Source: a virus
Taxonomy: Duplodnaviria > Caudoviricetes
Virus record (IMG/VR): IMGVR_UViG_3300028920_000023
Reading direction: 5' to 3' (one strand)
DNA: 64,000 nucleotides
The notes below the pieces were generated by a model. That model did not search any database. It worked only from the letters and a program-made list of their open reading frames with translations, and was not told the DNA's origin. This document shows positions 19,653 to 55,006 of the stretch, piece after piece. Made by a program: the position numbers and the translations under genes. Within the stretch, counting starts at the first letter, position 1. Each line of letters begins with the position of its first letter.

Positions 19653-19663
19653 CGTCTTCTCCT

Positions 19664-20077: not shown

Positions 20078-20080
20078 TAA

Positions 20081-20341: not shown

Positions 20342-20601
20342 GTTACCTTCTTTGTTATTATCAGCGATTGGAAGATCTGCACAGGTTGGAAATCGCTAGC
20401 AGCTTCCAATTCTAGGTACGTTTTGATGTCTGGATTGTTGCTCGTATTTGGTATTGTATCATCAGCCAACACCCTGTGTTGGGTGTCAAAGTGTAAGTTC
20501 TCTTGTATAGATCTGCTACCGGAGCTTCTGGTGTAGACTTCGCCCGTCCGTGTATCGACATGTAGAAGACCAATATTAGCTACGTGAACCTCGACAGCCA
20601 T
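20338..20601 (-). CDS. Hypothetical protein
   Basis: 87 aa, coupled to both neighbours. Confidence 0.6.
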   Translation of the reverse strand: MAVEVHVANIGLLHVDTRTGEVYTRSSGSRSIQENLHFDTQHRVLADDTIPNTSNNPDIKTYLELEAASDFQPVQIFQSLIITKKVT

Positions 20602-21470: not shown

Positions 21471-21485
21471 ATTATCCTTTAATTT

Positions 21486-21510: not shown

Positions 21511-21528
21511 GTCGATCATCCAGGATGC

Positions 21529-22680: not shown

Positions 22681-22690
22681 GGAGGGTCTC

Positions 22691-23167: not shown

Positions 23168-23288
23168 TGAAACCTCAGGATGGTCAAATGGATAGAAGTT
23201 CTGGGGAAGACCTTCTCACCATCCAACCTAGTAATCGCAAAATCGCTAAACTAATCGTTTACTCGTTAACTCGCTATTTTATTTTTGA

Positions 23289-32921: not shown

Positions 32922-33193
32922 GTGCTAGTGGTCCAATCTGATTTTTCTTTTTCCCGTTTCCGAATATTTACCAACACACGCTCCTTAATCTCATTATAAC
33001 ACAATGTGCAGATATCAAGATTAATCAATCTCTCATCAACAGATTTAGGCCCAGACCTCTGAACAACACAATCCACCTCAACCATATCAAAATTCACACT
33101 CAAATACTCAAATTTCTTAGTCAAAATCTTATTGCATAAATCACACCTAATACCAACAGCCTTCTTAGTCTTAGGATCACAATAAGCTACCAT
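32918..33193 (-). CDS. Hypothetical Zn-binding protein
   Basis: CDLC...DICTLC. Confidence 0.65.
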   Translation of the reverse strand: MVAYCDPKTKKAVGIRCDLCNKILTKKFEYLSVNFDMVEVDCVVQRSGPKSVDERLINLDICTLCYNEIKERVLVNIRKREKEKSDWTTST

Positions 33194-35736
33194 AACGGAT
33201 AATCCTCATCTCTAACCCTCTGTAAATCATCAGGACTCAAAGGCTCCTCCTCATCCTCAATATCAGCCCTCATAAGACGAATAATATCAGTATTATTACT
33301 GAACCTAAAACTCTTCCTAGGTACATTATAAATAATACCATCTATGTAAATCCCATTATCAACCTTCATAAGACCCTTATTCGCAGAAAAAATATCAGCC
33401 CAACAAACAATATCAGCAGTCTGCACACCATCCGTGACTCTAAGAGCATAATATGGATTGCCCTTCTTAGATTTTCTAGGCTCAACCTTCTCAATAACAA
33501 CCTCAAGCTTCTGAATAATCTCATCACTCTCCTGCTTGGCATTATCAATACACTTCTGTATCGTATAGCCCGTAGTACGGTACAAATCCAAAGGAGAATG
33601 CCAATAATAACCCAAATACTCCTTCTCAATATCCAACTGTTCGCGCAAATCAAAATCCTCGACACGAGCACTAATATCCTCATAAGAAGGATCTATCTTC
33701 GGAGTAAAAAACTCAACCTTCTTAGGCAACTTCTTCCGCTTCGGATACCACTCCTTATACTCAGCAATCTTCTTATCACGAATCTCCTGCAACTTATCAT
33801 CACTAAGCTTAAACCAAGAAGCAATTTCTTCACGCAACTCCTTGGTATTCTTATCCTTAGAATACTTCCAAACATAATAATACCACAAAGCCTTCTTATT
33901 AGCATACAACTTATCAAAAGCACCTAACTTAATAAGACGCTCAAAAACCGTTTTCTTCTTACCGCACTTCTCTATAACCTCCTCCAAACTAGTAAAGGAA
34001 GTACCGTAGGCCTTGGTAAAAGGCTCGGCAACAGAAGCACCAATACCCTTAATAGACTGAATACCAATAGTGACCTCATCACCATGAACAGTAAAATAGT
34101 CAGTCAACCTACAAACATCTAAAACACCAAACTTCACCTCATCCTTCTTAGCGGCACTCATATACAATGGTAACTTCTCTTGGTGGCATGCAGTCATAGC
34201 AGCAGCCCACCACTCAGCTGGATAATTCGCCTTAAGATACAAGCACATGTATGTTATAAGCGAGTACGCAACGCTATGGGATTTATTGAAGGCGTACCTG
34301 CCGAATGACTGCATACTTAGCCAATAATTATTTGTAGCTTCTTCACCAATTTCACTTATAGCACCTTCCTTCCACCTCTTTTCTACGTCTGGGAGCTTAT
34401 CTTCCCACTTCTTAGCAATAACCTTCCTAGCAAACTCAGCCTCAGGAACAGTAAAACCAGCCAAAGACTGCCACAAAGCCTGTAGTTGCTCCTGGTAACA
34501 AATAATCCCATAAGTATCCTCAAGAATCTTTACAATACGCTTATCCTGCCCAACCTGCCACCCATCGGGATCCTCATCGCGCCTCCTAATGTACTCTGGA
34601 ATTGTGTCAATAGGACCCGGACGCCCCAAGGCATTATAAATAACAAGATCATTAAAATCCTTCACAGAACCATCAGAAATAATGCCCTTCTGAATATCAG
34701 TCTCAACCTGAAAAACAGACTCAGTCTTAAGAGCATTACACATAGCAAGCGCCTTCTCATCCTTCAAAGAAATGCGCCTCTCAGAACCATCCAGATGGAC
34801 CTCGACACCAGCCTTATCAATCGTCGGATCAGGGTCAGACCAATCAATAACAATATTACGATTATTCTTAATATGCTCACCAGCCAACCACACATAACCC
34901 ATCGTCTTCAAGCCAAGAATATCGAACTTAACAAAACCCAACTTAGATAACTGAGTACTCCTACCCTCAGTCCACTGACTAGTCCAAGACTTATTATCAC
35001 CCCTACCCATATACGACAACGGAACAATATTCTCAATAGGCCTATCAGCAATAATCAACCCACCAGCATGAGTACCCTGAGTCTTAATCTTACCAACAAG
35101 ACGAAAAGCATAATCAACAATCTTCCTAGTAGTATCATCCCTCTCCCAATACTCATAAAAAGGTTTATACCTAGACAATTCCTTATGCGCTTCAGCCCTA
35201 ACCTCAGAAGGCAAAGACTTATCCTCAGCCTGCACCTTATACCTCTCAAGATCCTCCAAAGTCAAAGCATCAAACTCATCCGGAATCAATTTACTAAACT
35301 TAATAACCTCCCTAAAATCCTCACCCATAGCCCTAGAAACATCCTGCAAAGCACTCTTCGGCTTATACGTAACCCAACTACCAACACTACAAACATTCTT
35401 ATACTTATCATAAGCATACCTCTTAATATAATCCCTAGCATGAGGCAAAAAATCAATATCAATATCCGGAAAATCCGTCTGATATACCCATTTGTGCTCT
35501 ATAGACTCAGACAAAGGATCAACAGGCGTCATACCCAATAACCAAGGAAGAACCAACCCATTCTTATTATCATCCCACCTCTTCTTATTGACATAATAAT
35601 CCACCCAGCGCATAATAACGCCCTGCTTCTCAATCTCATAAAGCTCATCATCTAATCTATCATGATATTCTTCTGGGAGGTTTCTCTTCTTTAATTCTTG
35701 CAGGGCTTCCTTCTTAACATCTTCCCAGCTAGCCAT
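33187..35736 (-). CDS. dnaE: DNA polymerase III alpha, C-terminal part (catalytic palm, fingers, HhH, OB)
   Basis: PDIDIDF, GTHAGGLII, KFDILGLKT, ALGRPGP, ICYQEQ, YAFNKSHSVAYS, LKANYP, IKGIG, OB fold; no PHP domain. Confidence 0.93.
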   Translation of the reverse strand: MASWEDVKKEALQELKKRNLPEEYHDRLDDELYEIEKQGVIMRWVDYYVNKKRWDDNKNGLVLPWLLGMTPVDPLSESIEHKWVYQTDFPDIDIDFLPHARDYIKRYAYDKYKNVCSVGSWVTYKPKSALQDVSRAMGEDFREVIKFSKLIPDEFDALTLEDLERYKVQAEDKSLPSEVRAEAHKELSRYKPFYEYWERDDTTRKIVDYAFRLVGKIKTQGTHAGGLIIADRPIENIVPLSYMGRGDNKSWTSQWTEGRSTQLSKLGFVKFDILGLKTMGYVWLAGEHIKNNRNIVIDWSDPDPTIDKAGVEVHLDGSERRISLKDEKALAMCNALKTESVFQVETDIQKGIISDGSVKDFNDLVIYNALGRPGPIDTIPEYIRRRDEDPDGWQVGQDKRIVKILEDTYGIICYQEQLQALWQSLAGFTVPEAEFARKVIAKKWEDKLPDVEKRWKEGAISEIGEEATNNYWLSMQSFGRYAFNKSHSVAYSLITYMCLYLKANYPAEWWAAAMTACHQEKLPLYMSAAKKDEVKFGVLDVCRLTDYFTVHGDEVTIGIQSIKGIGASVAEPFTKAYGTSFTSLEEVIEKCGKKKTVFERLIKLGAFDKLYANKKALWYYYVWKYSKDKNTKELREEIASWFKLSDDKLQEIRDKKIAEYKEWYPKRKKLPKKVEFFTPKIDPSYEDISARVEDFDLREQLDIEKEYLGYYWHSPLDLYRTTGYTIQKCIDNAKQESDEIIQKLEVVIEKVEPRKSKKGNPYYALRVTDGVQTADIVCWADIFSANKGLMKVDNGIYIDGIIYNVPRKSFRFSNNTDIIRLMRADIEDEEEPLSPDDLQRVRDEDYPLW

Positions 35737-36142
35737 TATATTGTGGTTCCTTAGTCTTAGCAGTTACAGCAGTCATATCCGATAATTGCTTTATCACAGG
35801 ATCATCCTGTACGAAATTTACAGAACACTTCTCATAACTAAGAAATAACTTACGAATCCTCTCAACAACCTCAGTATTCTTAATAGCTTTCCTCTTCCAA
35901 TCACCACCTTCTCTAGCCAACATCATAGGCACGTACTTCCCACCAACATTAACCGTAGACTGCTTACGATGTTTAGGCAACACACTAGAAAGAGCCAACT
36001 CCACAGCCTTCAACTCAGCCTGATTATTAGTCATTTTAGGAACAGGAACAGACCTAGTCAGATTGTGCTTTTCATGATTAAGACGAATCGTAATCGCAGC
36101 ACCTCTCTTACCATAATTCCGACCATGAACCCACATAATCAT
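35729..36142 (-). CDS. RNase H-fold protein, probably catalytically inactive
   Basis: TNNQAELKAV retained; the usual DG Asp appears as HG and the TDS Asp as GG. Confidence 0.65.
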   Translation of the reverse strand: MIMWVHGRNYGKRGAAITIRLNHEKHNLTRSVPVPKMTNNQAELKAVELALSSVLPKHRKQSTVNVGGKYVPMMLAREGGDWKRKAIKNTEVVERIRKLFLSYEKCSVNFVQDDPVIKQLSDMTAVTAKTKEPQYNG

Positions 36143-36507
36143 ATCTTTGGAACCTCCACACCATGTCTCTTCAACTCATCAACCTTCATGTTACAAAACT
36201 CTACCAAAAGAGTTTTAGTCTCTAACGGATGAAGCTTATAATTATTTACAATGCGCTCAAGATTATCATATCGAGTATCATTTGCAAACATCCTCAACCT
36301 CTCGGTCAAGGCCTCAGCAATATAAACCAAAGGTAAACAAATAATATGTGAAATATCTTCTCTGAATTTTTCATCATCCTCAGCAAGAACAGAATCTATA
36401 ACATCCGGCCACTTATCTGTAATCTTAGAAATATCTAGGGGACCAGCATACATACGTATTGCATATAAGCTTTTCTTAGCTTCTGAAACAAGCTTGTTCT
36501 TATCCAT
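36139..36507 (-). CDS. Hypothetical protein
   Basis: 122 aa, coupled to neighbours. Confidence 0.65.
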   Translation of the reverse strand: MDKNKLVSEAKKSLYAIRMYAGPLDISKITDKWPDVIDSVLAEDDEKFREDISHIICLPLVYIAEALTERLRMFANDTRYDNLERIVNNYKLHPLETKTLLVEFCNMKVDELKRHGVEVPKI

Positions 36508-36509
36508 AA

Positions 36510-38000
36510 TTAATCCATAGAAACATTCAACATATAACCACCACGACTAGGGCTCAGGAACCTATTGAAAGACAAACCCTTCCATTTCAAAGGATCCAAA
36601 CTGTGAATGCCCAACAAGTAACACACCAAACTACCACCAGCAGAACCACGAGCAGGACCAACCGGCCAATTATGATGATCCGTAGAACGTCTAACCAAAT
36701 CCTGAGTAATTAAGAAATAAGAAGCAAAACCCTTCTCACAAAACCTCTTCAATTCAATCTCAACCTGCTCCCTATACGTCACCTCCCTGCCATCCATAGG
36801 ATACTTCTTATCACACTTATCCAAACCACGCTTCTTAAGCTCCCCATAAACAGAAGAGACTAATTTATATTCAGCCTCCTCAGGCGTACCTATCGTAGGC
36901 AACTTAGGATCTAAACTCGGCTTAAAAGTCTCACACTTTTCAGCAACCTCCAAAGTATTATCACAAGAACTCTCAAATAAACTCCTATCAACAAAATCAG
37001 AATATAAACCCCTACTAAAAGTAGCCCTCAACTCTGCCCTAGTCTTAAGATACTGCTCACTAGAATTCACATGAAATAACCCAGGATCATCATAAGTCAT
37101 GTCCTGATCTATAGCCATCATCAACTTCTGAAGCATAAAATCACGACGATCCAAATAGTGGCTATCGTTTGATAGTACTGTTTTAATACCCATATTATCC
37201 GCAAGAGATGCCAACAATGCAAAAATCTCGGAATCATGCCTTTCCTCATTAAACATAATCCCAGGCATCTGAAGCTCTATATAATAATCATCACCAAACA
37301 CCTCTCTAAATTTCTTAATATAATCTACAGCACCAGTTGTAAATTTTTTAGAATCTAAATTACCTCTTACTAATTCATGACTTACCGGACCATTCAAACA
37401 CCCAGACAATATAATCAGCCCCTCACAATGCTTAGCCAACACATCAAACCACACCCTCGGCTTATAGTAGAAACCATTCAGATAAGCATGACGATTTATT
37501 TTCAAAAGATTCTCATACCCAGTCATATTCTTGCAGATGACTGTCAGATGTCTGTTTCTTCTGAAACGCATCTGTAAATCGGGATCTTCCTCACCGATAT
37601 CTTTCATGGTAGCCCCCTGCGATATTAGTTGTTTCCTAAGGGGCTCGTAATCATTATAATAAATCTCACATCCTGAAAGGTATTTTATATTATGTTGTTT
37701 GGATGCGAAATAAGCATCTGGGACGCTGTTTAGTGTTCCGTGCTCTGTTATGGCTATTGCCGGCCATTTGTTATCTTCGCATTTTTGGAAGTAGTCTTCT
37801 GGGGATGCAACCCCGTCTAGGATGCTGAATAGGGTATGGTTATGGAGGTGGACCATTTCTGTTGGTCCAGGATATAGTTTCTCTGCTTCTTCTGCTGATA
37901 ATTCTTGTTCTAGTTCTTGTTCTCGTACTCTAATTTCAGCTTGCGGGGGTTTCTGTTCCGCTTGGGGTTTCTGTTCCGCTTGTGTCTGCGTCTGTTCCAT
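36510..38000 (-). CDS. dnaE: DNA polymerase III alpha, N-terminal part (PHP domain plus RGS motif)
   Basis: HLHNHT.FSILDG, AITEHG, GCEIY, HLTV, YYKPR, SGCL.G, NDSHY, GPARGSAGGSLVCYLLGI..LDP, LSFNRFL; stops just before where PDIDID would lie. Confidence 0.92.
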   Translation of the reverse strand: MEQTQTQAEQKPQAEQKPPQAEIRVREQELEQELSAEEAEKLYPGPTEMVHLHNHTLFSILDGVASPEDYFQKCEDNKWPAIAITEHGTLNSVPDAYFASKQHNIKYLSGCEIYYNDYEPLRKQLISQGATMKDIGEEDPDLQMRFRRNRHLTVICKNMTGYENLLKINRHAYLNGFYYKPRVWFDVLAKHCEGLIILSGCLNGPVSHELVRGNLDSKKFTTGAVDYIKKFREVFGDDYYIELQMPGIMFNEERHDSEIFALLASLADNMGIKTVLSNDSHYLDRRDFMLQKLMMAIDQDMTYDDPGLFHVNSSEQYLKTRAELRATFSRGLYSDFVDRSLFESSCDNTLEVAEKCETFKPSLDPKLPTIGTPEEAEYKLVSSVYGELKKRGLDKCDKKYPMDGREVTYREQVEIELKRFCEKGFASYFLITQDLVRRSTDHHNWPVGPARGSAGGSLVCYLLGIHSLDPLKWKGLSFNRFLSPSRGGYMLNVSMD

Positions 38001-38343
38001 TCGTGTCCGCCTTTTCTGTCTTCATCGTCTCTAATATCATCCGACGCAGAGGCGTAATCATCTTCCTGACCTCATTAAGGCCATTCCTAGCCCTTCGGCC
38101 TGCGGATTTATTATTACCATCAATAGATTTCTGGGCATTTGAGGCAATATCTTGTGCCACGTCAATAAGCTTCTGGAGCTCAGGATCATATTCCTCAGTG
38201 ACCTGTACCACATCCGTATCGACTTCCGCTGGTTTTCCTTCTGACATAGCTTTCTGAGCCTCCACGCAACCTTTGAGATGAAGATTAAACCCAGCGGAAC
38301 TCGTACAGAGTTTACCGCATACGCATTGATGGAATTTGTTCAT
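37936..38343 (-). CDS. Zn-finger plus histone H1-like (Hc1-like) protein
   Basis: CVCGKLC....FNLHLKGC; GNNKSAGRRARNGLNEVRKMITPLRR resembles the Hc1 family GNKAAGTRARK motif. Confidence 0.55.
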   Translation of the reverse strand: MNKFHQCVCGKLCTSSAGFNLHLKGCVEAQKAMSEGKPAEVDTDVVQVTEEYDPELQKLIDVAQDIASNAQKSIDGNNKSAGRRARNGLNEVRKMITPLRRMILETMKTEKADTNGTDADTSGTETPSGTETPAS

Positions 38344-40886: not shown

Positions 40887-41174
40887 CTAGAATAAAACAC
40901 CCTCATTATCGATACACATAACATCCCGATAATCAATAAAAGCATAATCTGCACGATGTGGATCCTTCCTATCCGGCTCAATAATATGGACAGGACAATG
41001 AAACTCAAAATAAGGACCCTCCTTATTAACCAGGATCCTATCACCAACCTCCAAACCAGAGACACCGCAGCCAATACCGACCACGGTGCCTCTAGAAGCA
41101 TCTCCCTCTGATTCAAGCCTAATCAAGATATACGAGCCATAAGGCTTAACGGGCAATTCATTCTTCATCTTCAT
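40887..41174 (-). CDS. GroES-like co-chaperonin
   Basis: VKPYGSYILIR...GTVVGIG...EVGDRILV...YAFIDYRDVMCI. Confidence 0.75.
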   Translation of the reverse strand: MKMKNELPVKPYGSYILIRLESEGDASRGTVVGIGCGVSGLEVGDRILVNKEGPYFEFHCPVHIIEPDRKDPHRADYAFIDYRDVMCIDNEGVLF

Positions 41175-42210
41175 GGAGTTCAGCAGCAGCCAAACAACCC
41201 TTGCTCACAGCGTGCAGAGGATCCGCAGCATGGCGAATCTCACCAATAGGAATCTGCAAATCATCCTTCTTCCTACCAAATTCTTTCCTCAAAAGATCAA
41301 TAAAACCCTTAGGCATAGAAGTACCACCAGCATTAATAACCGGAACCGGCTCCGGAAACCTCACCTTATCGCGATTCTCATTAAAACCACGAACAATACC
41401 ATTAACAACATTCTCAATCATAATCTCATACATAATCTTAATAGTCTGATCAACCTTATTATCATAATTCATCAAAGACAAATCAATCTTCTGCTTAGCA
41501 TGAGCAATCGTAGTCGGAGTCTCAGCATAATCACCATTCGGATTAGACGGATCATAGCCAAACCGAACAGCCGCATCAGAATCCACCCTATCACCCGCAC
41601 CAACCAAACAAAACTCAAAAATCGGAACACCAGCAAAACCAGCATGCACAGTAATCGTACCAGCACCCCAACTAATCCCAATAGCAGGACCAATCTCATC
41701 TAAAACCAAACACCTAGCCTCATTAATATGAAAAGCACTAATCTTACCACCACCAACAAACTTCTCAACCAACAACTTCACAATCTTCTTATGAAAATCA
41801 ACATTCAAACGCTCATCATTCAAAGCCTTAGCCGTAGTACAATAATACAAAACCGTATCATCCTTCACATCCTGCCCCAACGCATTCATAATAATCGACT
41901 TAACAATAATAGCCATAATCTCCTGAGCATTCTCATCCGTCTTAGAAACACCACCCTCAGCCATCGGGCGCTGTAAAGTCTTATTAAACATATAAGCCAA
42001 CTTCTCAGCCTTAGAGCCAATAGCAATCAACTGATCGCCATAAGGAACATAAGGAACACCCTGTTTCTTAAGAAGATTCTCAGTAAATTTATCACCCCTA
42101 CGCAAATCAATATAACCATTCACCTCATGAATGCTCTTAACCTCACCATCTTCCGTTTTCCAGGACAACACAATGTGCTTAGTACCTAAATCAAGTCCTA
42201 ATCTATCCAT
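41158..42210 (-). CDS. Actin-like ATPase (MreB/ParM/MamK superfamily)
   Basis: Phosphate-1 GLDLGT, connect-1 INEA, phosphate-2 ISWGAGT, adenosine GGTSMPKGF, connect-2 DPLHAVSKG; start MDRLG with GGGAG RBS. Confidence 0.85.
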   Translation of the reverse strand: MDRLGLDLGTKHIVLSWKTEDGEVKSIHEVNGYIDLRRGDKFTENLLKKQGVPYVPYGDQLIAIGSKAEKLAYMFNKTLQRPMAEGGVSKTDENAQEIMAIIVKSIIMNALGQDVKDDTVLYYCTTAKALNDERLNVDFHKKIVKLLVEKFVGGGKISAFHINEARCLVLDEIGPAIGISWGAGTITVHAGFAGVPIFEFCLVGAGDRVDSDAAVRFGYDPSNPNGDYAETPTTIAHAKQKIDLSLMNYDNKVDQTIKIMYEIMIENVVNGIVRGFNENRDKVRFPEPVPVINAGGTSMPKGFIDLLRKEFGRKKDDLQIPIGEIRHAADPLHAVSKGCLAAAELHEDEE

Positions 42211-42235
42211 GATTGGTCTCCCGCTTTTCTTAATG

Positions 42236-42517
42236 TTATTTATTGGTTTGGTCTTGCCCGAGATTAACTTCGGGCGTTTTGAAATTTTCGAACTTATCTT
42301 CGAAGTCCTGTAATCTTTCCTCATCCGTAACGGCTGGAGGAGATTTAATAAATCCTTCTTGGTTATCGTGTGATCCGGATCTATGTTCGGTGATATCGGC
42401 TTTTTCGGAGTTCTTCCCGGAACCATGTGTGAATACGTGAATTTCCGGGACATTAATATTGACCTCCACAACGACTTTAGGAGGCCCCAACAGCCATCTG
42501 AGGAATCTACCTAACAT
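42236..42517 (-). CDS. Hypothetical protein with amphipathic N-terminus
   Basis: MLGRFLRWLLGPP; acidic tail; directly upstream of the actin-like gene. Confidence 0.6.
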   Translation of the reverse strand: MLGRFLRWLLGPPKVVVEVNINVPEIHVFTHGSGKNSEKADITEHRSGSHDNQEGFIKSPPAVTDEERLQDFEDKFENFKTPEVNLGQDQTNK

Positions 42518-43274: not shown

Positions 43275-44438
43275 CTAATTTTTAGCTCCTTCTAATTCCG
43301 CGATGCGTTTCTTTAGATTTTGAATTTCCTCACTATTCTCCTGAGATTTCCGTATCGTGCTCTGCAGGCCAGCTGCTAAAATGGGCGTTATTTTGCCATA
43401 ATCTATCATTTGATAAATAGGCTTCCCATCATCATCTTCTGCATCCGGCACACCCGTAACAGCTGCTGGAATAACTAATTGTAATTCATCAGCAATAAAG
43501 CCTAATTGTACAGTCTGTTTTGGATCAGAAATAAATTCAAATAATCGTGGTTTAAGTTGCATCACTTGTTGTGCGGCTTGAAGATCTGGAATATACCTGA
43601 TATTGTCCTTTAATCGTCGGTCAGAAGCTGAACCGTAAGTCGTTGACGGTCCAGCTTGTGTAACGGAGATAGAACCACAATTCGTCGTATCTCTCACAAA
43701 ACCAATTGCGTCTCCATCTGCAGCGCTTCGATTCACCTGTATACCCACATAACCAAGTGAGGCATAAGCTACGTCGATAATAATGCCGTTATTTACTGTA
43801 CCGCAATCAATCTCTAATTTACCCGCATTTTCCTGAGCATTCTTATTGATAAGAATTTGACCATTAGTGTCAATACGCATAGATTCAACCCAGGTCGTAT
43901 CACCACCGCTGGTAGTTGATCGATACCAGACGTGTTCTGCGTTTCCGTTGTCATTTATGAGGTAGAGTGCTGCTTTGGCGGAGTCGTGGTGTTCCCATGC
44001 TCCACCAGAGCTTTGATAGGAGTTGGCTGCTAGACTTATTCTTTGGGTGCTTCCTGAATTTTGTGCGGCTACGTTTATTGAGCCGATTCTTAGAGCGGTT
44101 GTTCCTGTATTCCAGACGTCTGGTGCTGTTCCGATTCCTACGTTTCCTTCTGGGTTGATTTGTAGGGCTAGGTCTGGGTCTGTACTGTCTGTGAGGTTGT
44201 TTATTTGTAAATTACCATTATAACTAGTCAATTCCCATCCAGGCGAGGTATTATCCTCCTGAATCAACAAAGAAGGAGCACCGCTAAATAAAGTCAAACT
44301 CTCTAGTGTAGGATTCTGGTCTAATGGACCAGTTGCACCTGTGTTGCCCTGAGGCCCCGTGGGTCCTGTTACCCCCGTCGGACCCGTCGGTCCTGTAGCA
44401 CCCCGAAAAGTAATATTCTGTAAAGTACTAGTGCCCAT
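43275..44438 (-). CDS. Tail fibre protein with collagen-like start and C-terminal intramolecular chaperone (peptidase S74-like)
   Basis: GPTGPT repeats; SDRRLKDNI, QLKP..FEF, LGFIADEL, IDYGKITP, terminal coiled coil. Confidence 0.85.
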   Translation of the reverse strand: MGTSTLQNITFRGATGPTGPTGVTGPTGPQGNTGATGPLDQNPTLESLTLFSGAPSLLIQEDNTSPGWELTSYNGNLQINNLTDSTDPDLALQINPEGNVGIGTAPDVWNTGTTALRIGSINVAAQNSGSTQRISLAANSYQSSGGAWEHHDSAKAALYLINDNGNAEHVWYRSTTSGGDTTWVESMRIDTNGQILINKNAQENAGKLEIDCGTVNNGIIIDVAYASLGYVGIQVNRSAADGDAIGFVRDTTNCGSISVTQAGPSTTYGSASDRRLKDNIRYIPDLQAAQQVMQLKPRLFEFISDPKQTVQLGFIADELQLVIPAAVTGVPDAEDDDGKPIYQMIDYGKITPILAAGLQSTIRKSQENSEEIQNLKKRIAELEGAKN

Positions 44439-48127: not shown

Positions 48128-49636
48128 ATGAAAATTATTACTTCTGATGGTTCAGTATTATCTGGGGAAATAGGACCAACCGGTCCTCTTGGACCAACCG
48201 GACCAGAAGGACCACTAAACCAAAACCCAACACTAGAAAGCCTCACTTTATTCAGCAACGCCCCATCCCTACTCATACAAGAAGATAATACCTCTCCAGG
48301 ATGGGAATTAACAAGTAATAATGGCAACTTACAAATAAACAATCTGACAGACAGTACAAACCCAGAAACAGTATTGCAAGCCAGCACTGACAGCATAATA
48401 ACACTCCACAACGCTACCAATGGAACATTCTTAATCGGTGGAACCACACAGCCAGATGCAACGTTTGGAACAGTACTACAAATAGAAAACGATCAAACAG
48501 CAGCAAACTCCCTAATATTCCGTAAAGACACGAGCGGAACAGAACAAACCGTAGGCAGGATTGTAGCTAAAAGTGGAAATTCCTTGGCCTCGTATGATCG
48601 TCTAGCCCAAATTGATTTCGCTCAGGACGCCGCAGACAACAGCACGGGGATGATGTTATTCTATACTGGTGGGGCAGGCGGTACCTTCACCGAGAAAATG
48701 CGGATTGATTCTGACGGTTTTCTAGGATTAGGAGTTGCTCCAGAATCGGATATTAACACCAATTTCAAAGCACTCCGAATAGGCTCCAGATTAATTGTCC
48801 AATATGATGAATCTGGTGATTATTGCGGGTTAATGTATAACCGCTATCGTGCTGCCTCGTCATGGGCAAGTATGGAAACTGGGGTAGGTGCGTGGCATCA
48901 CTTTGAAGCTAACGGGGCGCAAACATTTGGATATTTTGCATCGGGTAGCGGCGATGCGGTAAACCGCATGGTTATTGATGAGAACGGACACTTAACGAAT
49001 TATAGTAATATATATGCAAGTAGCACAGGTACAGATTGTGCTATTGTATCAACGGATGGTGCGACAAATGCAAACGAACTTATCATGTACTTCAACCATT
49101 CTAGCAGCCGTGCAGAAATTATTGCGGTACAGCAAAACGTAGGATATCGCGCACTCTGGCTAAATCCAAACGGATCTGGTGTTGTGATCGGTAATCCTAC
49201 AGGTGGTGACAAAGGAACAGGTACATTAAATGCGCAAGGAGTATACGATGACAATGTTCTGTTGACATGTTACGTAGGAGAAGCCTACGCCACAGGAGAT
49301 ATCAACATAGCCAAATGGGATGCTTTAGTCCCAGACCAAACCGATACAGATGTAAATGGAGTAGAACGCACAATAAAGAAGACTCATGAGAGAGCACGTT
49401 ATATAAAAGATAATCTCTGGATGTTAGATCCTCGGAAATACGGAGATTTCTTTAAAGAAAAAAGACATCTAGCAGGCATGCCAAGTTTCGAAACCTGGAA
49501 GCACGGCGACATGCCTATCGGAGACCTAACATGCCGATTATGGGAATGCTGTGAATTATTAACTGTGCATATCCATAAATTAGAATCACAAATAACAGAA
49601 TTAAAGACAGAAATAGAAAAATTAAAAGCATCCTAA
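48128..49636 (+). CDS. Tail fibre protein with C-terminal chaperone-type domain
   Basis: AAGGAG RBS; shared PLNQNPTLESLTLFS module; GNPTGGDKGTGTLNAQGVYDD...LWECCELLTVHIHKL coiled-coil end. Confidence 0.8.
   Translation: MKIITSDGSVLSGEIGPTGPLGPTGPEGPLNQNPTLESLTLFSNAPSLLIQEDNTSPGWELTSNNGNLQINNLTDSTNPETVLQASTDSIITLHNATNGTFLIGGTTQPDATFGTVLQIENDQTAANSLIFRKDTSGTEQTVGRIVAKSGNSLASYDRLAQIDFAQDAADNSTGMMLFYTGGAGGTFTEKMRIDSDGFLGLGVAPESDINTNFKALRIGSRLIVQYDESGDYCGLMYNRYRAASSWASMETGVGAWHHFEANGAQTFGYFASGSGDAVNRMVIDENGHLTNYSNIYASSTGTDCAIVSTDGATNANELIMYFNHSSSRAEIIAVQQNVGYRALWLNPNGSGVVIGNPTGGDKGTGTLNAQGVYDDNVLLTCYVGEAYATGDINIAKWDALVPDQTDTDVNGVERTIKKTHERARYIKDNLWMLDPRKYGDFFKEKRHLAGMPSFETWKHGDMPIGDLTCRLWECCELLTVHIHKLESQITELKTEIEKLKAS
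48197..48369 (+). repeat. Dispersed repeat: shared fibre N-terminal module (copies at about 44180-44335 minus and 61611-61786 plus)
   Basis: Near-identical peptide QNPTLESLTLFSxAPSLLIQEDNTSPGWELTSxNGNLQINNLTDST in three genes; the 48.2 and 61.6 kb DNA copies are visibly highly similar. Confidence 0.9.
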
Positions 49637-49671: not shown

Positions 49672-51294
49672 ATGAACGCCATAGTCATAATTTGTATCGG
49701 AAAAGCCCATCAGCAATTCTACCAAATATCAAAACCAACAATAGAAGCATACGCAAGAAAAGTAGGAGCAGAACTAATAGAAATAACAGAACAAACAACA
49801 AACACAATAAGCCCACACTTCGAAAAATTCCAAATCTACGACCTCCTCATAAAATACCAACGAATCCTATACTTAGACATAGACCTCATCATAAGAGACG
49901 ACTGCCCAAACCTCTTCGAACTAGTACCAGAAGACAAAATCGGGCTCTTCGACGAAAGCCCACACAAAAACCACATCCGGCACATGGTAGAAGCAAGCCA
50001 AACCTACAAAATCAAAATCGAAAAAGACTACGACGGATCCTACTACAACACCGGCGTATTCATCCTCTCCAGAATGCACCGAGACCTATTCCAACCACCA
50101 ACCATACAAAGCATCCACAACCACCAAGACCAAAGCTACCTCAACCTAAAAATCCAACAAACACACACCCGAGTCCACAAACTACACCACAGACTCAACA
50201 GAACACCAATCGTAGACGAAACCACCGGAGACCACAGACTAAACGCCCACATCATCCACTACGCAGGAATATTACAAAACGCACAGAGAGTAATGCACAA
50301 CGACCTCCAAAGATGGAAACAAGGCGAAACACAAATACAACCAAAAGCCATACTAGCAATAGGAGCAAGACTAGGCGACATAACCTGCGCAGAACCAATA
50401 ATCAGATATCTAGCCACAAAACAATACCCAGAATATGAAATAACAATCTTAAGCAATCAACCAAGAATATTCGCACATCTAGGCCAAAGAGCCACACTAG
50501 CCACCTTCGAAGGACATAAACGAGACCCCGACCAAGCATACCTCATCAAAAACATAATGCTACCCCAAGAACACCCCATATGGCAATACATGACAGCCAA
50601 TAACATGCACACCGTAGACTGGATGGCAATAAACTGCCTCAAACACACACTACCAGACCAAGACAAACAAATACAACTAGCAGCAAGCCCACAAGGCAAC
50701 CAAGAAATAGACGAAATATTCATACAATACGGCTACAAACCAGAAGAAACAATCCTAATACACCCAGGACGAAGCTGGGCATCCAAAACATTCCCAGCAC
50801 GATACTGGAACAAAATCATCAACGGACTAATCAAAAAAGGACACAAACCAGTAATCATAGGAAAAGACATAACAGAAAAAATCCAAGGCAAAAAACTACC
50901 CAACCTAGGAACAGTAGAAGGACTCGAAATACCAGAAAACACCCCAGACCTAAGAAACCTACTCTCCATAGACAGCCTCATCTCAATAATATCCAGAGCA
51001 CCAATCCTAATATCAAACGACTCCGCACCCATCCACATAGCCGGAGCATTCAACAACCACATAATACTAATACCAACCTGCAAACACCCCGACTTCATAC
51101 TCCCATGGAGAAACGGAAGCAAATACCACAAAGCACAAGCACTATACAACCAACCCATGTGGGAAGCACCCTGCAAAAGCCCACAAAACACACTCAATTA
51201 TGAACTAGAAACAATACCAGAAGGACACAACATCCTAGAATACCTCCCAGACCCCAGCAAAATCATCAAAACAGCAGAAGAGATCACCAAATGA
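49672..51294 (+). CDS. GT8-like plus GT9-like glycosyltransferase fusion
   Basis: ILYLDID, YNTGV, DQSYLN, IIHYAG; then RLGD...HPGRSWASKTFP...ISNDSAPIHIAGAF. Confidence 0.85.
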   Translation: MNAIVIICIGKAHQQFYQISKPTIEAYARKVGAELIEITEQTTNTISPHFEKFQIYDLLIKYQRILYLDIDLIIRDDCPNLFELVPEDKIGLFDESPHKNHIRHMVEASQTYKIKIEKDYDGSYYNTGVFILSRMHRDLFQPPTIQSIHNHQDQSYLNLKIQQTHTRVHKLHHRLNRTPIVDETTGDHRLNAHIIHYAGILQNAQRVMHNDLQRWKQGETQIQPKAILAIGARLGDITCAEPIIRYLATKQYPEYEITILSNQPRIFAHLGQRATLATFEGHKRDPDQAYLIKNIMLPQEHPIWQYMTANNMHTVDWMAINCLKHTLPDQDKQIQLAASPQGNQEIDEIFIQYGYKPEETILIHPGRSWASKTFPARYWNKIINGLIKKGHKPVIIGKDITEKIQGKKLPNLGTVEGLEIPENTPDLRNLLSIDSLISIISRAPILISNDSAPIHIAGAFNNHIILIPTCKHPDFILPWRNGSKYHKAQALYNQPMWEAPCKSPQNTLNYELETIPEGHNILEYLPDPSKIIKTAEEITK

Positions 51295-52574
51295 AAACAG
51301 CACTAATGACACTAACAATCGGAACATACTTCAGAAGTATGTCCATAACAGCACACAAATATATGCAAGCCTACGCCCACAAAATAGGCGCAGACTTCAT
51401 CGACATAGACGAAAGCCAATACTCACACTGCCACTACGACAAATTCAGAATATACGAACTATTAGAACAATACGACAGAATAATATACCTAGACGGAGAC
51501 ATCCTAATAACACCCGAAAGCCCCAACCTATTTGACATCGTACCCCAAGACAAATTCGGTGCCCTATACGAAGGAAAATACGCCACCGACGAAGAACGAC
51601 AAAAACACCACCAAGTAATACTCAAAGCAAGCCAAGAACACGAAATACAACTACCAGAAAACTACAAATTCATAAACGCAGGAATAATGATCATATCAAA
51701 ATGCCACAGAGAATTATTCGCACCACCACAAAAAATCGTCCATATGGAATACGGCGACCAACCACTAATGGTACTAAGAATAGCAAACAGTAACACAGAA
51801 ATATTCGACATCGGACCAGACCTCAACAGAATGCCATACCTAGACAGACTAGGAAAACCAAGAACAGAAAGCCACATCATACACTACGCAGGACTAAACA
51901 ACCCACACGAACTAATGAAAAGAGACATACACCACATAGAGAACGAAACAGGACCGAAAATAATCTACGTCCTAAACATCAACAACTACATGCCAAAATT
52001 ATGCGAAATAACCATACCAAGTATACAAGCCTATGCAGATAGAATCGGAGCAAGACTTCACATAATAACAGAAAGACAATATCCAGAATGGCCAATCGTC
52101 TATGAGAAAACCCAATTATGGGACCTAGGAAAAGACAACGAATGGACAATCTTCATAGACGCAGACGTAATAATCGGAAAAGACCTACCAGACCTGACAG
52201 AATACATGGGGCTAAACGAAGTAGGAATGCACATGTCCTACGACTACGATAAACACCTCCCAAGCGATTATCTCGTAAACAAAGACAGAAGGAACATCGG
52301 AATCGTCGGCAGCTTTCTCGTAACCCATAAAACATGCCATAGAATATGGGAACCATTCGAAGAAACAGTCCACAACATAAAAAGAAGACTAGCCTGCAAT
52401 GAGACAAAAGACCACCTAATACACGAATACAAACTCAGCAGAAACCTAGCAAGATACGGCTTTAAACACAGAGGAATAACAGAAATAAGCGACGACTTCC
52501 TACACTTAAGTGCCACAGTAGAAGACAACGACACACTAGGAAGAGCTAGAGAATTCGCAGAAAGAAGATGCTAA
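51291..52574 (+). CDS. Tandem GT8-like glycosyltransferase
   Basis: IIYLDGD, INAG, DQP, IIHYAG; second domain EKTQLW...IFIDAD. Confidence 0.8.
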   Translation: MKTALMTLTIGTYFRSMSITAHKYMQAYAHKIGADFIDIDESQYSHCHYDKFRIYELLEQYDRIIYLDGDILITPESPNLFDIVPQDKFGALYEGKYATDEERQKHHQVILKASQEHEIQLPENYKFINAGIMIISKCHRELFAPPQKIVHMEYGDQPLMVLRIANSNTEIFDIGPDLNRMPYLDRLGKPRTESHIIHYAGLNNPHELMKRDIHHIENETGPKIIYVLNINNYMPKLCEITIPSIQAYADRIGARLHIITERQYPEWPIVYEKTQLWDLGKDNEWTIFIDADVIIGKDLPDLTEYMGLNEVGMHMSYDYDKHLPSDYLVNKDRRNIGIVGSFLVTHKTCHRIWEPFEETVHNIKRRLACNETKDHLIHEYKLSRNLARYGFKHRGITEISDDFLHLSATVEDNDTLGRAREFAERRC

Positions 52575-54157
52575 TTCCAATCATTAAGCATATTACGAAT
52601 CTCATTACATACAACATCAACCTCAGGCAAATAATCCATAATATCACCATTCACCCAGTCAATATCCTGGCCATGCACCATAGTAGGACGAGAATCGATA
52701 TCGGCACAAACCAACCGCTTATATAAAGACGCAGACTTATAAGTCTGATGACCATACCTATACGGAATAACATGATCAGGAGCCTTGCAAGTCGGAATCA
52801 ATGCAATATAATTATCAAAAGCACCAGCAATATGAACCGGAGCAGAATCATTAGTCAACAACACCTTAGCCTTGCTAACTAGAGCAAAAATACCACCCAA
52901 AGACAATAAATTGATTGTATTAATCACATCGGAAGGAATATTATCAAGCTTCACAACACCCTGCTCATCAGAAATATGTTTACCAATTAAAATAACCCGA
53001 CCGACCTTAGACAACTCGCGAACAACCTCTTCCCAATATTCCTTAGGAAAAGTCTTAGAAGGCCAACCCCTACCAGCATGAACCAAAACACAATTATCAA
53101 AATCCAAATCAGAACCAACTACCTTCTCAAGCTCCTCATAATCTTCCTTAAGAACCTTCAATTTAATATGCTTACAATCATTCGGAATAGTCCCCCTCAG
53201 ACTCATGACACTGCTGTAGTCCGTCGTATGCATCTGATTAGGAGAAACATAACGCCAAGACGGACAACCATGCTTGGCCATCGTATGAATCTCGTAATAT
53301 GAGGTATCATCTTTGGGCTTGAAGGTGCCCATATCGTACACCGGAACAGGAAGATGCATAAACGCCCTGGGATACCAAGTAGTCACGTGTATTCTAGCAT
53401 CTGGATAAGCTTTTTCAATAATATAACGGATTACGGGTTCAGCGCAAATCTGATCACCTAAACCTCCATGAACCTGGACATTAATATTAAAAGGATAATC
53501 TGATAAATTGCTTCTCCAAGAAGCCAAATCTTTCTCGACAAGGTTAAAAACAGTTCCAATATTTGGACAACCAGCATAATGAACAATATAACTTGCTAAC
53601 CTATGCTTACCGACGAAATCTAGAACCGTCATCCTATTAAAATTATACTCAAGTTCAAATATTTCAACTTTAGATTTCTTGAACATTAAATTTAGAAATG
53701 ATTGCTCATAAAAATTGCTAATTTCATTCATAGGCTTTACAAACAAATGTTTATGACACCTAGAAATGACAAGAACGCCAGTATTGTAATAATCATTATC
53801 CCAATTTAGTTGTACATTATATTGCTGTTTAATAGCTTGGATAGCACCAGAACGGTCAGCGAATCTTCCTTCATTAAAGGCACCCAATTTATCTTCTGGA
53901 ACGATATCAAACAAATTCGGACAATCTTCTCTAACAATTAAATCTGTATCCATATAGATAATTCTATGGTAGACGTTTAGATAATAATATATCTGGAATT
54001 TTTCGAAATGTGGTGTAGTTTGTGAGATCTGTTGTTGATCAATAACAATAAAATCGGCACCAATTCTCTTGGCATAGGCTTCCAGAGTAGGATGCGTCAG
54101 TTTTGCTAAAGACTGATGATTCTGACCAATTGCGATCGTTATTATTGCTGTTTTCAT
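52571..54157 (-). CDS. GT8-like plus GT9-like glycosyltransferase fusion (paralogue of 49672)
   Basis: FEKFQIY, IIYMDTD, YNTGV, IVHYAG; GGLGDQICAEP, GWPSKTFP, TNDSAPVHIAGAF. Confidence 0.85.
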   Translation of the reverse strand: MKTAIITIAIGQNHQSLAKLTHPTLEAYAKRIGADFIVIDQQQISQTTPHFEKFQIYYYLNVYHRIIYMDTDLIVREDCPNLFDIVPEDKLGAFNEGRFADRSGAIQAIKQQYNVQLNWDNDYYNTGVLVISRCHKHLFVKPMNEISNFYEQSFLNLMFKKSKVEIFELEYNFNRMTVLDFVGKHRLASYIVHYAGCPNIGTVFNLVEKDLASWRSNLSDYPFNINVQVHGGLGDQICAEPVIRYIIEKAYPDARIHVTTWYPRAFMHLPVPVYDMGTFKPKDDTSYYEIHTMAKHGCPSWRYVSPNQMHTTDYSSVMSLRGTIPNDCKHIKLKVLKEDYEELEKVVGSDLDFDNCVLVHAGRGWPSKTFPKEYWEEVVRELSKVGRVILIGKHISDEQGVVKLDNIPSDVINTINLLSLGGIFALVSKAKVLLTNDSAPVHIAGAFDNYIALIPTCKAPDHVIPYRYGHQTYKSASLYKRLVCADIDSRPTMVHGQDIDWVNGDIMDYLPEVDVVCNEIRNMLNDWN

Positions 54158-55002: not shown

Positions 55003-55006
55003 GTTA

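What the first reader, a model, noticed from the sequence alone, without database searches (positions are those of the whole stretch)
37500..38050. Short patches where the skew reverses inside intact genes
Within the single dnaE-N ORF the 5' ~320 nt use A/C-ending codons (+ strand 37741-37800 has only 20 of 60 A+C), while the rest uses G/T-ending codons (36961-37020 has 46 of 60 A+C), with a graded transition. Similar reversed patches of about 300 nt appear at about 9040-9400 (nrdJ 5' end), 20150-20560, 43900-44200, 54720-55000 and 62200-62900. Several sit at gene 5' ends and several are roughly 10-11 kb apart. The reading frames are intact, so these are not inversions. They could mark recurring replication priming or D-/R-loop sites where the opposite strand is exposed, giving a mutational map of origins. 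They could instead be segments recombined in from oppositely oriented homologues.
Basis: partly seen in the sequence, partly recalled or inferred. Interest (0 to 1): 0.8.

Follow-up and report, generated by a model that had tools for sequence, protein, structure and literature searches.

The report
Mirror-image strand-bias patches inside genes
In this giant marine-sediment phage one DNA strand is almost pure A/C at silent codon positions, and a few 100-650-base stretches inside intact genes carry the exact mirror image of that bias. These patches are real, but whether they are recombination scars or places where the other strand is damaged in place stays open.

Summary
Observation confirmed. 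A three-state model on third codon positions recovers all six listed patches. Within-gene heterogeneity is three times that of synonymous-codon shuffles and exceeds all 500 of them.

The background skew is purely strand-based. At two-fold sites, + genes are the arithmetic mirror of - genes. The patches carry that mirror signature down to its internal asymmetry, and their first and second codon positions are shifted too, so codon selection is unlikely.

The "map of origins" reading finds no support. Spacing is irregular, no motif is shared, patch edges have no consistent polarity, and the dnaE-N patch is absent from 63 relatives.

For recombination:
- Several patches have step-like edges and a full mirror amplitude.
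- Tail-fibre distal modules and the nrdJ intein region are non-resident.
- nrdJ segments take independent states in eight relatives, with breakpoints at the most conserved motifs.
- Two close relatives show a sub-genic low-divergence block.

Against recombination:
- No suitable mirrored donor was found.
- Mirror alleles would be only about 70% identical.
- Some edges are graded.
- The nrdJ 5' patch recurs in two diverged relatives.

Verdict: recombination tracts from oppositely oriented alleles about 0.45; in-place local reversal about 0.3. The scan has noted similar mirror-image patchworks in other genomes.

The parts
37671..37983 (-). Reversed-skew patch in the 5' end of dnaE-N (ORF 36510..38000). 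It covers codons about 6-110, including the first 55 residues of the PHP domain. The core is 37722-37944.
   Evidence: The + strand A+C at third positions is 0.24 over 105 codons, and 0.13-0.27 in the core. Two-fold sites give C 0.65 and A 0.88. The right edge is at about 37964 with scale <=40 nt, and the left edge at about 37672. The PHP domain hit spans aa 51-244.
37936..38000 (-). A/C-rich low-complexity junction where the Hc1-like gene's 3' extension overlaps the dnaE-N 5' extension. It holds a tandem 18-nt unit, CAAGCGGAACAGAAACCC, in two copies.
   Evidence: Read directly. Relatives L021 and L053 have a shorter junction without it.
9010..9656 (-). Reversed-skew patch that spans the 3' half of gene 9299..9985 and the first about 110 codons of nrdJ (6607..9333). 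That part of nrdJ is its all-alpha N-terminal domain.
   Evidence: A+C at third positions is 0.26 over 227 codons. The left edge is graded with scale 60 nt (40-120), and the right edge with scale 240 nt. The same segment is low in relatives L073 and L077.
7402..8440 (-). Nearly unskewed segment of nrdJ. It consists of the mini-intein (aa 289-430, nt 8044-8469) plus about 200 codons of the C-extein.
   Evidence: A+C at third positions drops from 0.90 to 0.60 at the intein N-junction and stays near 0.5 until about 7390. Intein models hit. The same C-extein segment is low in L074, L076 and L078.
20189..20542 (-). Reversed-skew patch covering two small genes (20081..20341 and 20338..20601). It lies inside a 4-kb weakly skewed block (18816-23036) that holds UvsY-like, gp32-like SSB and exonuclease genes.
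   Evidence: A+C at third positions is 0.34 over 119 codons. The right edge is step-like at 20544. Gene names come from PHROGs.
43929..44208 (-). Fully mirrored patch in tail-fibre gene 43275..44438 (codons about 77-170). It lies just past the N-terminal anchor that is shared with two + strand paralogues.
   Evidence: A+C at third positions is 0.12. At four-fold sites the + strand is T 0.64, G 0.30, A 0.06, C 0.00. Two-fold sites give C 0.77 and A 1.00. Both edges are step-like, at 43930 and 44212. The sequence is, and the paralogy.
54694..54934 (-). Reversed core of a broad valley of about 2 kb (53294-55400). The core lies in the sulfotransferase gene 54154..55035.
   Evidence: A+C at third positions is 0.30 over 81 codons. 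The flanks are graded with scale about 320 nt.
62606..62702 (+). Short patch of G/T-ending codons in + strand tail-fibre gene 61545..62912. It coincides with the gene's S74 chaperone domain.
   Evidence: A+C at third positions is 0.15 over 33 codons, against about 0.5 in its surroundings. The Peptidase_S74 hit is at aa 349-402. It is only marginally significant on its own.
61967..62912 (+). Unskewed distal part of tail-fibre gene 61545..62912, after a resident-skewed N-terminal anchor of 140 codons.
   Evidence: A+C at third positions steps from 0.75-1.0 down to about 0.45 near 61965.
48559..49576 (+). Unskewed distal part of tail-fibre gene 48128..49636, after a resident-skewed N-terminal anchor.
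   Evidence: There is a step at 48556 with scale <=20 nt, from 0.80 to 0.47.

Best explanation
Shown. The genome is under an extreme, purely strand-specific mutation pressure. On the - strand, C is driven to T and A to G, so the + strand becomes A/C-rich whichever strand codes. Each reversed patch carries the exact mirror of that signature, in its silent sites and partly in its amino-acid usage. For a long time, therefore, the other strand of that stretch was the exposed one.

Inferred, and my preferred reading. The patches are short recombination or gene-conversion tracts copied from alleles or paralogues that lay in the opposite orientation relative to the asymmetric process, either in related phages or elsewhere in this genome. 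Because the resident bias is so strong, every such tract stays visible until local mutation erases it. On this reading the abundant nearly unskewed segments are older tracts, tracts from weakly skewed donors, or tracts around hot spots of exchange (the intein homing site, tail-fibre distal modules).
For: - Strand-only regime. At two-fold sites, - genes have C 0.08 and A 0.19. The mirror prediction for + genes is 0.81 and 0.92, and 0.81 and 0.92 are observed. Four-fold sites show the same.
- Mirror signature in the patches. Patches have C 0.64 and A 0.83, and patch 43929-44208 has 0.77 and 1.00. Their G+T at codon positions 1 and 2 is 0.45 and 0.40, like + genes (0.40, 0.40) and unlike resident - genes (0.57, 0.48).
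- Step-like edges with full mirror amplitude occur at 43930, 44212, 20544, 37964 and 48556. This is what a copied block gives.
- Known exchangeable DNA is non-resident. All three tail-fibre paralogues keep a resident-skewed N-terminal anchor and switch at about codon 140. The nrdJ skew drops at the intein N-junction, and relatives have a full intein, a mini-intein or none at this site.
- nrdJ segments behave as independent modules. In eight relatives the segments aa 1-105, 431-630 and 651-908 take low or high skew independently of one another; L080 even has the opposite pattern to the window. The breakpoints lie at the most conserved clusters: aa 82-143, 255-288/432-447 and 594-628.
- Sub-genic exchange happens in this clade. 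L021 and L053 share a low-divergence block of about 400 nt amid saturated silent sites.
- The dnaE-N patch is lineage-specific: the 5'-minus-rest difference is -0.62, against +0.03 with sd 0.11 in 63 relatives.
- Both gene orientations of the fibre family exist in this window.
Against: - No donor was found. There is no second copy of any patch in the window.
- None of the nine nrdJ or 63 dnaE-N relatives is strongly mirrored as a whole. L065 reaches only 0.34 and is distant.
- Mirror alleles would differ at most third positions, giving about 70% identity with hardly any identical run. Homologous exchange of a 300-nt tract within single-copy core genes should therefore be rare. This point is my own reasoning.
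- Inside the dnaE patch L021 is still the nearest relative (0.70 against at most 0.61), so any donor must come from the same unsampled clade.
- The nrdJ 5' patch is also present in L073 (0.42 against 0.67, p=3e-6) and L077 (0.38 against 0.63, p=1e-5), although silent sites are saturated between these genomes. That needs repeated imports at the same place, or maintenance in place.
- Some edges are significantly graded: nrdJ left, up228 right and the sulfotransferase flank.
- About 40% of codons are non-resident, which is a great deal to call imported.
- Segment-wise protein identities show no discordance. All relatives are 50-70% identical.
Confidence: 0.45

Rival explanations
1. In-place local reversal. 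At certain sites the + strand, not the - strand, is the one that is recurrently single-stranded or otherwise damaged, so the same mutation process writes its mirror image there. Candidate causes, none shown: strong antisense transcription or R-loops with + sense RNA; resection at recurrent nicks or breaks; leading-strand gaps left after the replisome meets a roadblock; local initiation of synthesis in the opposite direction.
For: - The mirror signature includes its internal Y/R asymmetry.
- Patches cross gene borders. State borders lie no closer to gene ends than chance: median 202 nt against 233 nt.
- Valleys are graded at nrdJ/up228 and around 54.8 kb.
- The nrdJ 5' patch recurs, with the same extent, in L073 and L077.
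- A reversed small gene sits next to the gp5-like gene in L075 (0.15).
- L021 remains the nearest relative inside the dnaE patch.
- The A/C-rich repeat expansion at the Hc1/dnaE junction appears to have arisen in place.
Against: - A full mirror amplitude needs the genome-wide resident pressure to be switched off inside the patch, not merely opposed. That is hard to reconcile with 280-nt blocks whose edges are sharp to within 20 nt on both sides.
- There is no shared motif, no GGCC link, no promoter or terminator excess and no late-promoter link.
- There is no common polarity of sharp and graded edges, and no periodicity.
- The dnaE-N patch is absent from 63 relatives.
- nrdJ segment states differ freely between relatives, and L080 is inverted.
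- Known transcription-associated deamination would make the coding strand of - genes more G/T-rich, not less. This rests on established knowledge (Beletskii and Bhagwat 1996; Francino and Ochman), recalled from memory.
Confidence: 0.3
2. Selection on the messenger or on decoding. A/C-ending codons, which pair by Watson-Crick with G34/U34 tRNAs, or A/C-rich unstructured RNA, are favoured in the 5' parts of some genes. This overrides the mutation bias in - strand genes.
For: - Five of the six patches are in - genes, and four of those lie in the first 45% of a gene.
- Codons 11-70 have 0.08 more A/C endings than the rest of the gene: 25 of 37 genes, p=0.002, with the big-patch genes excluded.
- + genes reach the most extreme A/C values, 0.95-0.99 at four-fold sites.
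Against: - + and - genes are exact arithmetic mirrors at two-fold sites in both the resident and the unskewed state, which leaves no room for a coding-sense component.
- Patches reproduce the mirror's Y/R asymmetry and shift codon positions 1 and 2.
- Patches cross gene borders and cover the 3' half of gene 9299..9985.
- 45% of + gene codons are unskewed, and one + gene patch is G/T-ending.
- The 5' effect may be inflated by over-long ORF calls. One was found at 42236-42471.
- There is no consistent selected RNA structure: z is -1.7, 0.2 and -2.8.
Confidence: 0.1
3. Artefact. The patches come from wrong frames or gene calls, from amino-acid composition, or from a chimeric metagenome assembly that joins two strains.
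For: - The contig is a metagenome assembly and is not in the searched collections.
- One over-extended ORF call was found.
- Lys/Glu/Gln-rich stretches have weaker G/T endings.
Against: - Frames in the patches are fixed by homology.
- In non-resident segments no other codon phase is skewed.
- Shuffles that keep the protein sequence do not reproduce the pattern.
- Cross-genome correlation survives correction for codon family, with r 0.35-0.48.
- A chimera would still need a mirror-skewed strain as its source, which is the recombination reading in another guise. Six or more in-frame chimeric joints are unlikely.
Confidence: 0.05

Closest known systems
Replication-associated strand compositional asymmetry (bacterial leading strand G+T-rich; vertebrate mitochondrial H/L strands, attributed to C and A deamination on the strand left single-stranded)
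   Same: The bias ignores gene orientation. The direction of change is the same: C to T and A to G on one strand. Codon choice is dictated by strand. This rests on established knowledge of these systems.
   Different: The amplitude is far higher, with 90-99% A+C at four-fold sites. The sign flips in patches of 100-650 nt inside intact genes, instead of only at an origin or terminus.
Local GC-skew reversals read as a record of gene or segment inversion (Merrikh and Merrikh 2018, PMC6220195)
   Same: A stretch with inverted skew is taken as DNA that spent its past in the other orientation relative to replication.
   Different: Here the reversed stretch is only part of a gene whose frame and orientation are intact. 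A physical inversion of that stretch is therefore excluded, and only copying from an inverted allele could give it.
Amelioration of horizontally acquired DNA, and the mosaic genomes of phages (Lawrence and Ochman; Hendrix; both from memory)
   Same: Atypical composition marks DNA with a different history. Tail-fibre distal modules and an intein region are the atypical parts. There is sub-genic exchange between L021 and L053.
   Different: The atypical composition is not foreign but the exact mirror of the resident one. The tracts sit inside conserved single-copy replication genes, and no donor is known.
Intein and homing-endonuclease homing with co-conversion of flanking sequence
   Same: The nrdJ unskewed segment starts at the intein N-junction and runs on into the extein. 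The intein is polymorphic among relatives, which have a full LAGLIDADG intein, a mini-intein or none.
   Different: The tract extends about 600 nt on one side only. A low-skew C-extein is also seen in L078, which has no intein.
R-loop-primed phage origins (T4 oriF/oriG) and R-loop-linked GC skew at promoters (Ginno et al. 2013, PMC3787257, listed)
   Same: Both involve short regions of a few hundred bases in which one strand is displaced, some of them near gene 5' ends.
   Different: An R-loop from sense transcription would expose the - strand, which is the resident direction. The patches need the + strand exposed. No promoter or unwinding element was found, and there is no conserved position for the dnaE patch.

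Membership tests
Mutational strand asymmetry (replication-type) | The bias follows the DNA strand, not the coding sense | tested here: met
   At two-fold sites + genes (C 0.81, A 0.92) equal the mirror predicted from - genes (0.81, 0.92). The same holds in the unskewed state.
Mutational strand asymmetry (replication-type) | The sign changes only at an origin or terminus, over long domains | tested here: not met
   There are six sign reversals of 100-650 nt within 64 kb.
Recombination / gene-conversion tract from a mirror-oriented allele | Block-like tract with abrupt edges | tested here: inconclusive
   Edges are step-like at 43930, 44212, 20544, 37964 and 48556. They are significantly graded at nrdJ left, up228 right and the sulfotransferase flank.
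Recombination / gene-conversion tract from a mirror-oriented allele | The tract has a different phylogenetic affinity or divergence from its flanks | tested here: inconclusive
   All relatives are 50-70% identical, and no discordance is seen. Inside the dnaE patch L021 is still the nearest relative.
Recombination / gene-conversion tract from a mirror-oriented allele | A plausible donor exists (the same gene under the mirrored regime) | tested here: not met
   There is no second copy in the window. No strongly mirrored nrdJ or dnaE-N was found among 9 and 63 relatives. The lineage is poorly sampled.
Recombination / gene-conversion tract from a mirror-oriented allele | Sub-genic exchange occurs in the clade | tested here: met
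   L021 and L053 share a low-divergence block amid saturated silent sites. nrdJ segment states assort independently among relatives.
Replication origin / priming site | Recurrent sequence element (iterons, unwinding element, promoter) at each site | tested here: not met
   No k-mer of 8-10 nt is shared by four or more patches. Promoter- and terminator-like sites are at chance level.
Replication origin / priming site | Regular spacing or a conserved position among relatives | tested here: inconclusive
   Spacings are 6-17.5 kb. The dnaE patch is not conserved. The nrdJ 5' patch is shared with L073 and L077.
Replication origin / priming site | Nascent strands or R-loops start there | not testable with these tools
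   This needs infected-cell mapping.
Translational or mRNA-level codon selection | The bias follows the coding sense and the expression level | tested here: not met
   There is an exact strand mirror in both states. Patches cross gene borders. There are unskewed and G/T-ending stretches in + genes.

The most novel reading that the evidence does not exclude
The patches are written in place. At defined sites the normally protected strand of this phage's DNA is recurrently exposed, through resection at programmed nicks or breaks, antisense R-loops or local opposite-direction synthesis. The genome's extreme deamination-type pressure then records these events at base resolution. The silent-site map would then be a natural footprint of single-strand exposure across a giant phage genome. 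The similar mirror-image patchworks that this scan noted in unrelated bacteria and archaea would share one undescribed cause.
Probability: 0.25. Interest if true: 0.85.

Novelty: new variant of a known kind. Interest (0 to 1): 0.6.

Why it matters
The strand bias here is extreme enough that silent codon positions act as a high-contrast recorder of each stretch's history.

If the patches are recombination tracts, this genome offers a rare direct view of exchange at a scale of a few hundred bases inside essential phage genes, at breakpoints that protein trees cannot resolve. It also warns against reading local skew reversals as inversions.

If they are written in place, they would map where the opposite strand is exposed during the replication or repair of a giant phage, something for which no experimental map exists.

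In either case gene finders and codon-usage methods will mis-score such genes.

Tried and rejected
Searches for the contig and for close relatives
- The window has no held genome. It is not in IMG/VR by exact 39-mer, and it shows no DNA similarity to INPHARED phages.
- The one metagenome scan and the viral scan gave relatives of at most 64% amino-acid identity, so patch-versus-flank trees had no power.
- Segment-wise identity of nrdJ to 38 homologues, and all pairwise comparisons among them, showed no discordance.

Tests on the patches that gave nothing
- A search for donor copies inside the window by blastn and tblastx found only the old fibre N-terminal paralogy.
- The inverted paralogue trio at 49672-54157 is about 35% identical, so there has been no recent conversion.
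- The late-promoter motif YAAANATA is not tied to the patches.
- GGCC sites, a lead from another genome's note, are not enriched and do not sit at edges.
- No k-mers are shared.
- Sigma-70-like promoters and terminators are at chance level.
- Selected long-range RNA pairing between A/C patches and G/U flanks is inconsistent (a first attempt timed out).

Corrections to my own analysis
- The first skew correlation with relatives could have been due to amino-acid composition. It survived correction for codon family. I now read it as shared breakpoints plus some shared states, not as a fixed landscape.
- The apparent low silent divergence in the first 78 codons of the actin-like ORF of L021 and L053 was partly a wrong-frame effect. 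After I corrected the gene model the low-divergence block remained.

Technical limits
- Four of eleven contig look-ups returned no DNA.
- The cap on Python scripts was reached.
Full report
WHAT THE WINDOW IS

The 64 kb belong to a giant, uncultured phage. Earlier notes of this scan place it in marine sediment. No whole genome is held for it. Genes are tightly packed and mostly on the - strand. They include:
- a split DnaE polymerase: dnaE-N 36510..38000 and dnaE-C 33187..35736;
- an Hc1-like histone-like gene just upstream of dnaE-N;
- nrdJ with a mini-intein;
- gp32-like SSB, UvsY-like and exonuclease genes;
- a sulfotransferase;
- several tail-fibre genes.

The + strand is A 33.5%, C 25.8%, T 25.3%, G 15.3%.

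THE BACKGROUND AGAINST WHICH THE FINDING SITS

At four-fold degenerate sites the + strand is about A 0.68, C 0.2, G 0.05, T 0.06 whichever strand codes. In the + genes 49672..52574, A+C reaches 0.95-0.99.

The cleanest test is at two-fold sites:
- Resident - genes have C/(C+T) 0.08 and A/(A+G) 0.19.
- A pure strand process then predicts 0.81 and 0.92 for + genes.
- The observed values are 0.81 and 0.92.

The nearly unskewed state obeys the same mirror rule. The predicted values are 0.46 and 0.72, and 0.44 and 0.70 are observed.

The bias is therefore a property of the DNA strand. It has the direction expected from C-to-T and A-to-G change on the - strand, with no detectable coding-sense component. 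This is the mitochondrial or leading-strand type of asymmetry, at very high amplitude.

Most relatives lack it. Only the nearest ones show a weaker form: L021, L053 and L057 for dnaE-N, and L073-L078 for nrdJ.

CHECKING THE OBSERVATION

About 37% of codons fall in a third state near 0.58.

Permuting synonymous codons within each gene gives a within-gene window variance of 0.0053 (maximum 0.0062 in 500 runs), against 0.0157 observed. It gives 29.5 windows at or below 0.30 (maximum 101), against 383 observed.

The patches are not frame errors. In dnaE-N the PHP domain starts at residue 51, inside the patch. No other codon phase is skewed in any non-resident segment. I did find one over-long ORF call (see the 5' tendency below), and it did not alter the conclusion.

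WHAT THE PATCHES ARE MADE OF

On the + strand their four-fold sites are T 0.5-0.64, G 0.2-0.4, A 0.06-0.16 and C 0-0.1. This is the complement of the resident composition.

At two-fold sites they show C 0.64 and A 0.83, and the fibre patch shows 0.77 and 1.00. The purine sites are more biased than the pyrimidine sites, exactly as the mirror of the resident process requires.

Their first and second codon positions are also shifted. Coding-sense G+T is 0.45 and 0.40, as in + strand genes (0.40, 0.40), against 0.57 and 0.48 in resident - genes.

So the patch DNA evolved for a long time under the same process with the strands swapped. This makes selection on codons or on the messenger an unlikely cause, and it leaves two DNA-level readings.

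EVIDENCE BEARING ON THE ORIGINS OR EXPOSED-STRAND READING

- Spacings are 11.0, 17.5, 6.2, 10.7 and 7.8 kb. This is not periodic, and only weakly more even than random (P=0.04, six points).
- No k-mer of 8-10 nt is shared by four or more patches.
- Promoter- and terminator-like sites are at chance level.
- The candidate late-promoter motif from earlier notes is not linked to patches.
- GGCC, which another follow-up found at switch points in an archaeon, plays no role here.
- Edges have no common polarity. The dnaE patch is sharp on the right, the nrdJ patch is sharper on the left, and the fibre patch is sharp on both sides.
- Across 63 relatives the dnaE-N 5' part does not differ from the rest of the gene (mean +0.03, sd 0.11). 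The window stands at -0.62, and one relative, L050, reaches -0.27. The closest relatives, L021 and L053, have normal G/T endings there.

Some facts do favour an in-place process:
- The nrdJ/up228 valley and the valley around 54.8 kb have significantly graded flanks.
- L021 remains the nearest relative inside the dnaE patch.
- The first 105 codons of nrdJ are also reversed, relative to each genome's own weaker regime, in L073 (0.42 against 0.67, p=3e-6) and L077 (0.38 against 0.63, p=1e-5). Silent sites are saturated between these genomes.
- In L075 a small gene next to the gp5-like gene has G/T endings of only 0.15.

EVIDENCE BEARING ON THE RECOMBINATION READING

- Several patches are blocks with edges sharp to within 20-40 nt and a full mirror amplitude. 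Examples are 43930-44212, the right edges at 20544 and 37964, and the step at 48556. An exposure process that spreads out from a site would not give this. It would also have to cancel the genome-wide pressure inside the block.
- The parts of the window known from phage biology to be exchanged are the non-resident ones. All three tail-fibre paralogues keep a resident-skewed N-terminal anchor and switch near codon 140. The one G/T-ending patch in a + gene falls on an S74 chaperone domain. The nrdJ skew drops from 0.90 to 0.60 at the intein N-junction, and relatives carry a full LAGLIDADG intein, a mini-intein or none at that site.
- In eight nrdJ relatives the segments aa 1-105, 431-630 and 651-908 are low or high in different combinations. 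L073 and L077 are low in the first. L074, L076 and L078 are low in the second. L080 is low in the last, the reverse of the window. The joints fall in the most conserved clusters of the protein: aa 82-143, 255-288/432-447 and 594-628. Shared breakpoints with freely assorting states are what exchange between diverged alleles gives.
- L021 and L053 show that such exchange happens in this clade. A block of about 400 nt (a small gene plus the first 40 codons of the actin-like gene) differs at 6-30% of silent sites, while the rest is saturated at about 50-65% despite 93-100% protein identity.

WEAKNESSES OF THE RECOMBINATION READING

- No donor was found, either in the window or among relatives.
- Mirror alleles would share hardly any identical run, which should make homologous exchange of 300-nt tracts in single-copy genes rare.
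- The recurrence of the nrdJ 5' patch needs repeated events.
- Protein-level discordance could not be shown, because nothing closer than 58-64% identity is available.

A GENERAL 5' TENDENCY

Codons 11-70 carry slightly more A/C endings than the rest of the gene: +0.08, in 25 of 37 genes, p=0.002, with the big-patch genes left out. I give this little weight for two reasons:
- Longest-ORF calls over-extend 5' ends. An example is the actin-like ORF, whose first 88 codons overlap a real, conserved 93-residue gene at 42236..42517.
- The exact strand mirror leaves no room for a coding-sense force.

VERDICT

The patches are stretches that carry the mirror image of the genome's own strand-specific mutation signature.

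| Reading | Probability |
|---|---|
| Recombination or gene-conversion tracts from oppositely oriented alleles or paralogues | about 0.45 |
| In-place local reversal (the opposite strand exposed) | about 0.3 |
| Selection | about 0.1 |
| Artefact | about 0.05 |
| Both DNA-level processes acting together (sharp blocks and graded valleys may have different causes) | the remainder |

The specific idea of a periodic map of origins is not supported.

This scan has noted similar mirror-image patchworks in unrelated bacteria and archaea, and follow-up verdicts there were also split between recombination and in-place change. I found no paper that describes sub-genic mirrored patches. The closest published idea reads local skew reversals as inversions (PMC6220195), and inversion cannot apply inside an intact gene.

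Noticed in passing
window 49672-52574 (+ genes) and the whole window: The strand skew is extreme and independent of gene orientation. Four-fold sites are 95-99% A+C in two + genes and 85-93% in many - genes. At two-fold sites + and - genes are exact arithmetic mirrors. Most relatives lack this.
   Followed up: partly
window 42236-42517 (-): This is a conserved 93-residue gene, with homologues in L021 (1502..1762) and L053 (4346..4606). It overlaps the over-extended start of the actin/ParM-like ORF 41158..42471, which more likely starts near 42207. The small gene itself is unskewed (0.43) between two strongly skewed genes.
   Followed up: partly
window 8044-8469 (-), inside nrdJ 6607..9333: A mini-intein of 142 residues (CITGD...VIIGN|C) sits at the conserved TNP|C site. 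Relatives carry a full LAGLIDADG intein, a mini-intein or no intein at the same site.
   Followed up: partly
window 33187-38000 (-): DnaE is split into dnaE-N (496 aa: PHP plus the start of the NTPase domain) and dnaE-C (849 aa). Two small ORFs lie between them: 36139..36507, and 35729..36142, which has a weak RNase H-like PHROG hit. No intein halves were looked for.
   Followed up: no
window 38001-38343 (-): This is an Hc1-like (chlamydial histone H1-like) small basic protein with a Cys-rich N-terminus (CVCGKLC...HLKGC). It lies directly upstream of dnaE-N, and the gene pair is conserved in L021 and L053.
   Followed up: no
window 43275-44438 (-), 48128-49636 (+), 61545-62912 (+): Three tail-fibre paralogues share an N-terminal anchor of about 95 residues (75-80% nucleotide identity) in both orientations. 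Arms 44173-44375 and 48164-48366 form a 203-nt inverted repeat that brackets 3.8 kb of + genes with mixed skew. Whether this segment ever inverts was not tested.
   Followed up: no
window 55007-61419 (-): This is a tandem array of four paralogous genes of 517-547 residues. Each has a collagen-like Gly-X-Y run and about 50-residue internal repeats (period about 150 nt).
   Followed up: no
window 23168-23288: This 121-nt intergenic region upstream of the UvsY-like gene has closely spaced GCGA/ACGA(G/T)T(A/T) repeats. They look like an operator or iteron array. The region sits at the right border of the 4-kb weakly skewed block 18816-23036.
   Followed up: no
window 49672-54157: Three diverged paralogues (about 35% identity) with similar signal-peptide-like N-termini lie as two + genes and one - gene. 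The - copy shows a 5'-to-3' gradient of skew, from 0.5 to 0.9.
   Followed up: partly
L021 1502-1900 and L053 4346-4740: Two related phage contigs share a low-divergence block of about 400 nt in which amino-acid changes outnumber silent ones. It lies next to genes with saturated silent sites and near-identical proteins.
   Followed up: partly
window 21566-21751 (-): The gp32-like SSB gene ends in an imperfect 6-18-nt repeat that encodes an acidic Glu/Pro/Gly-rich tail. This repeat drives an apparent skew in the wrong codon phase.
   Followed up: no
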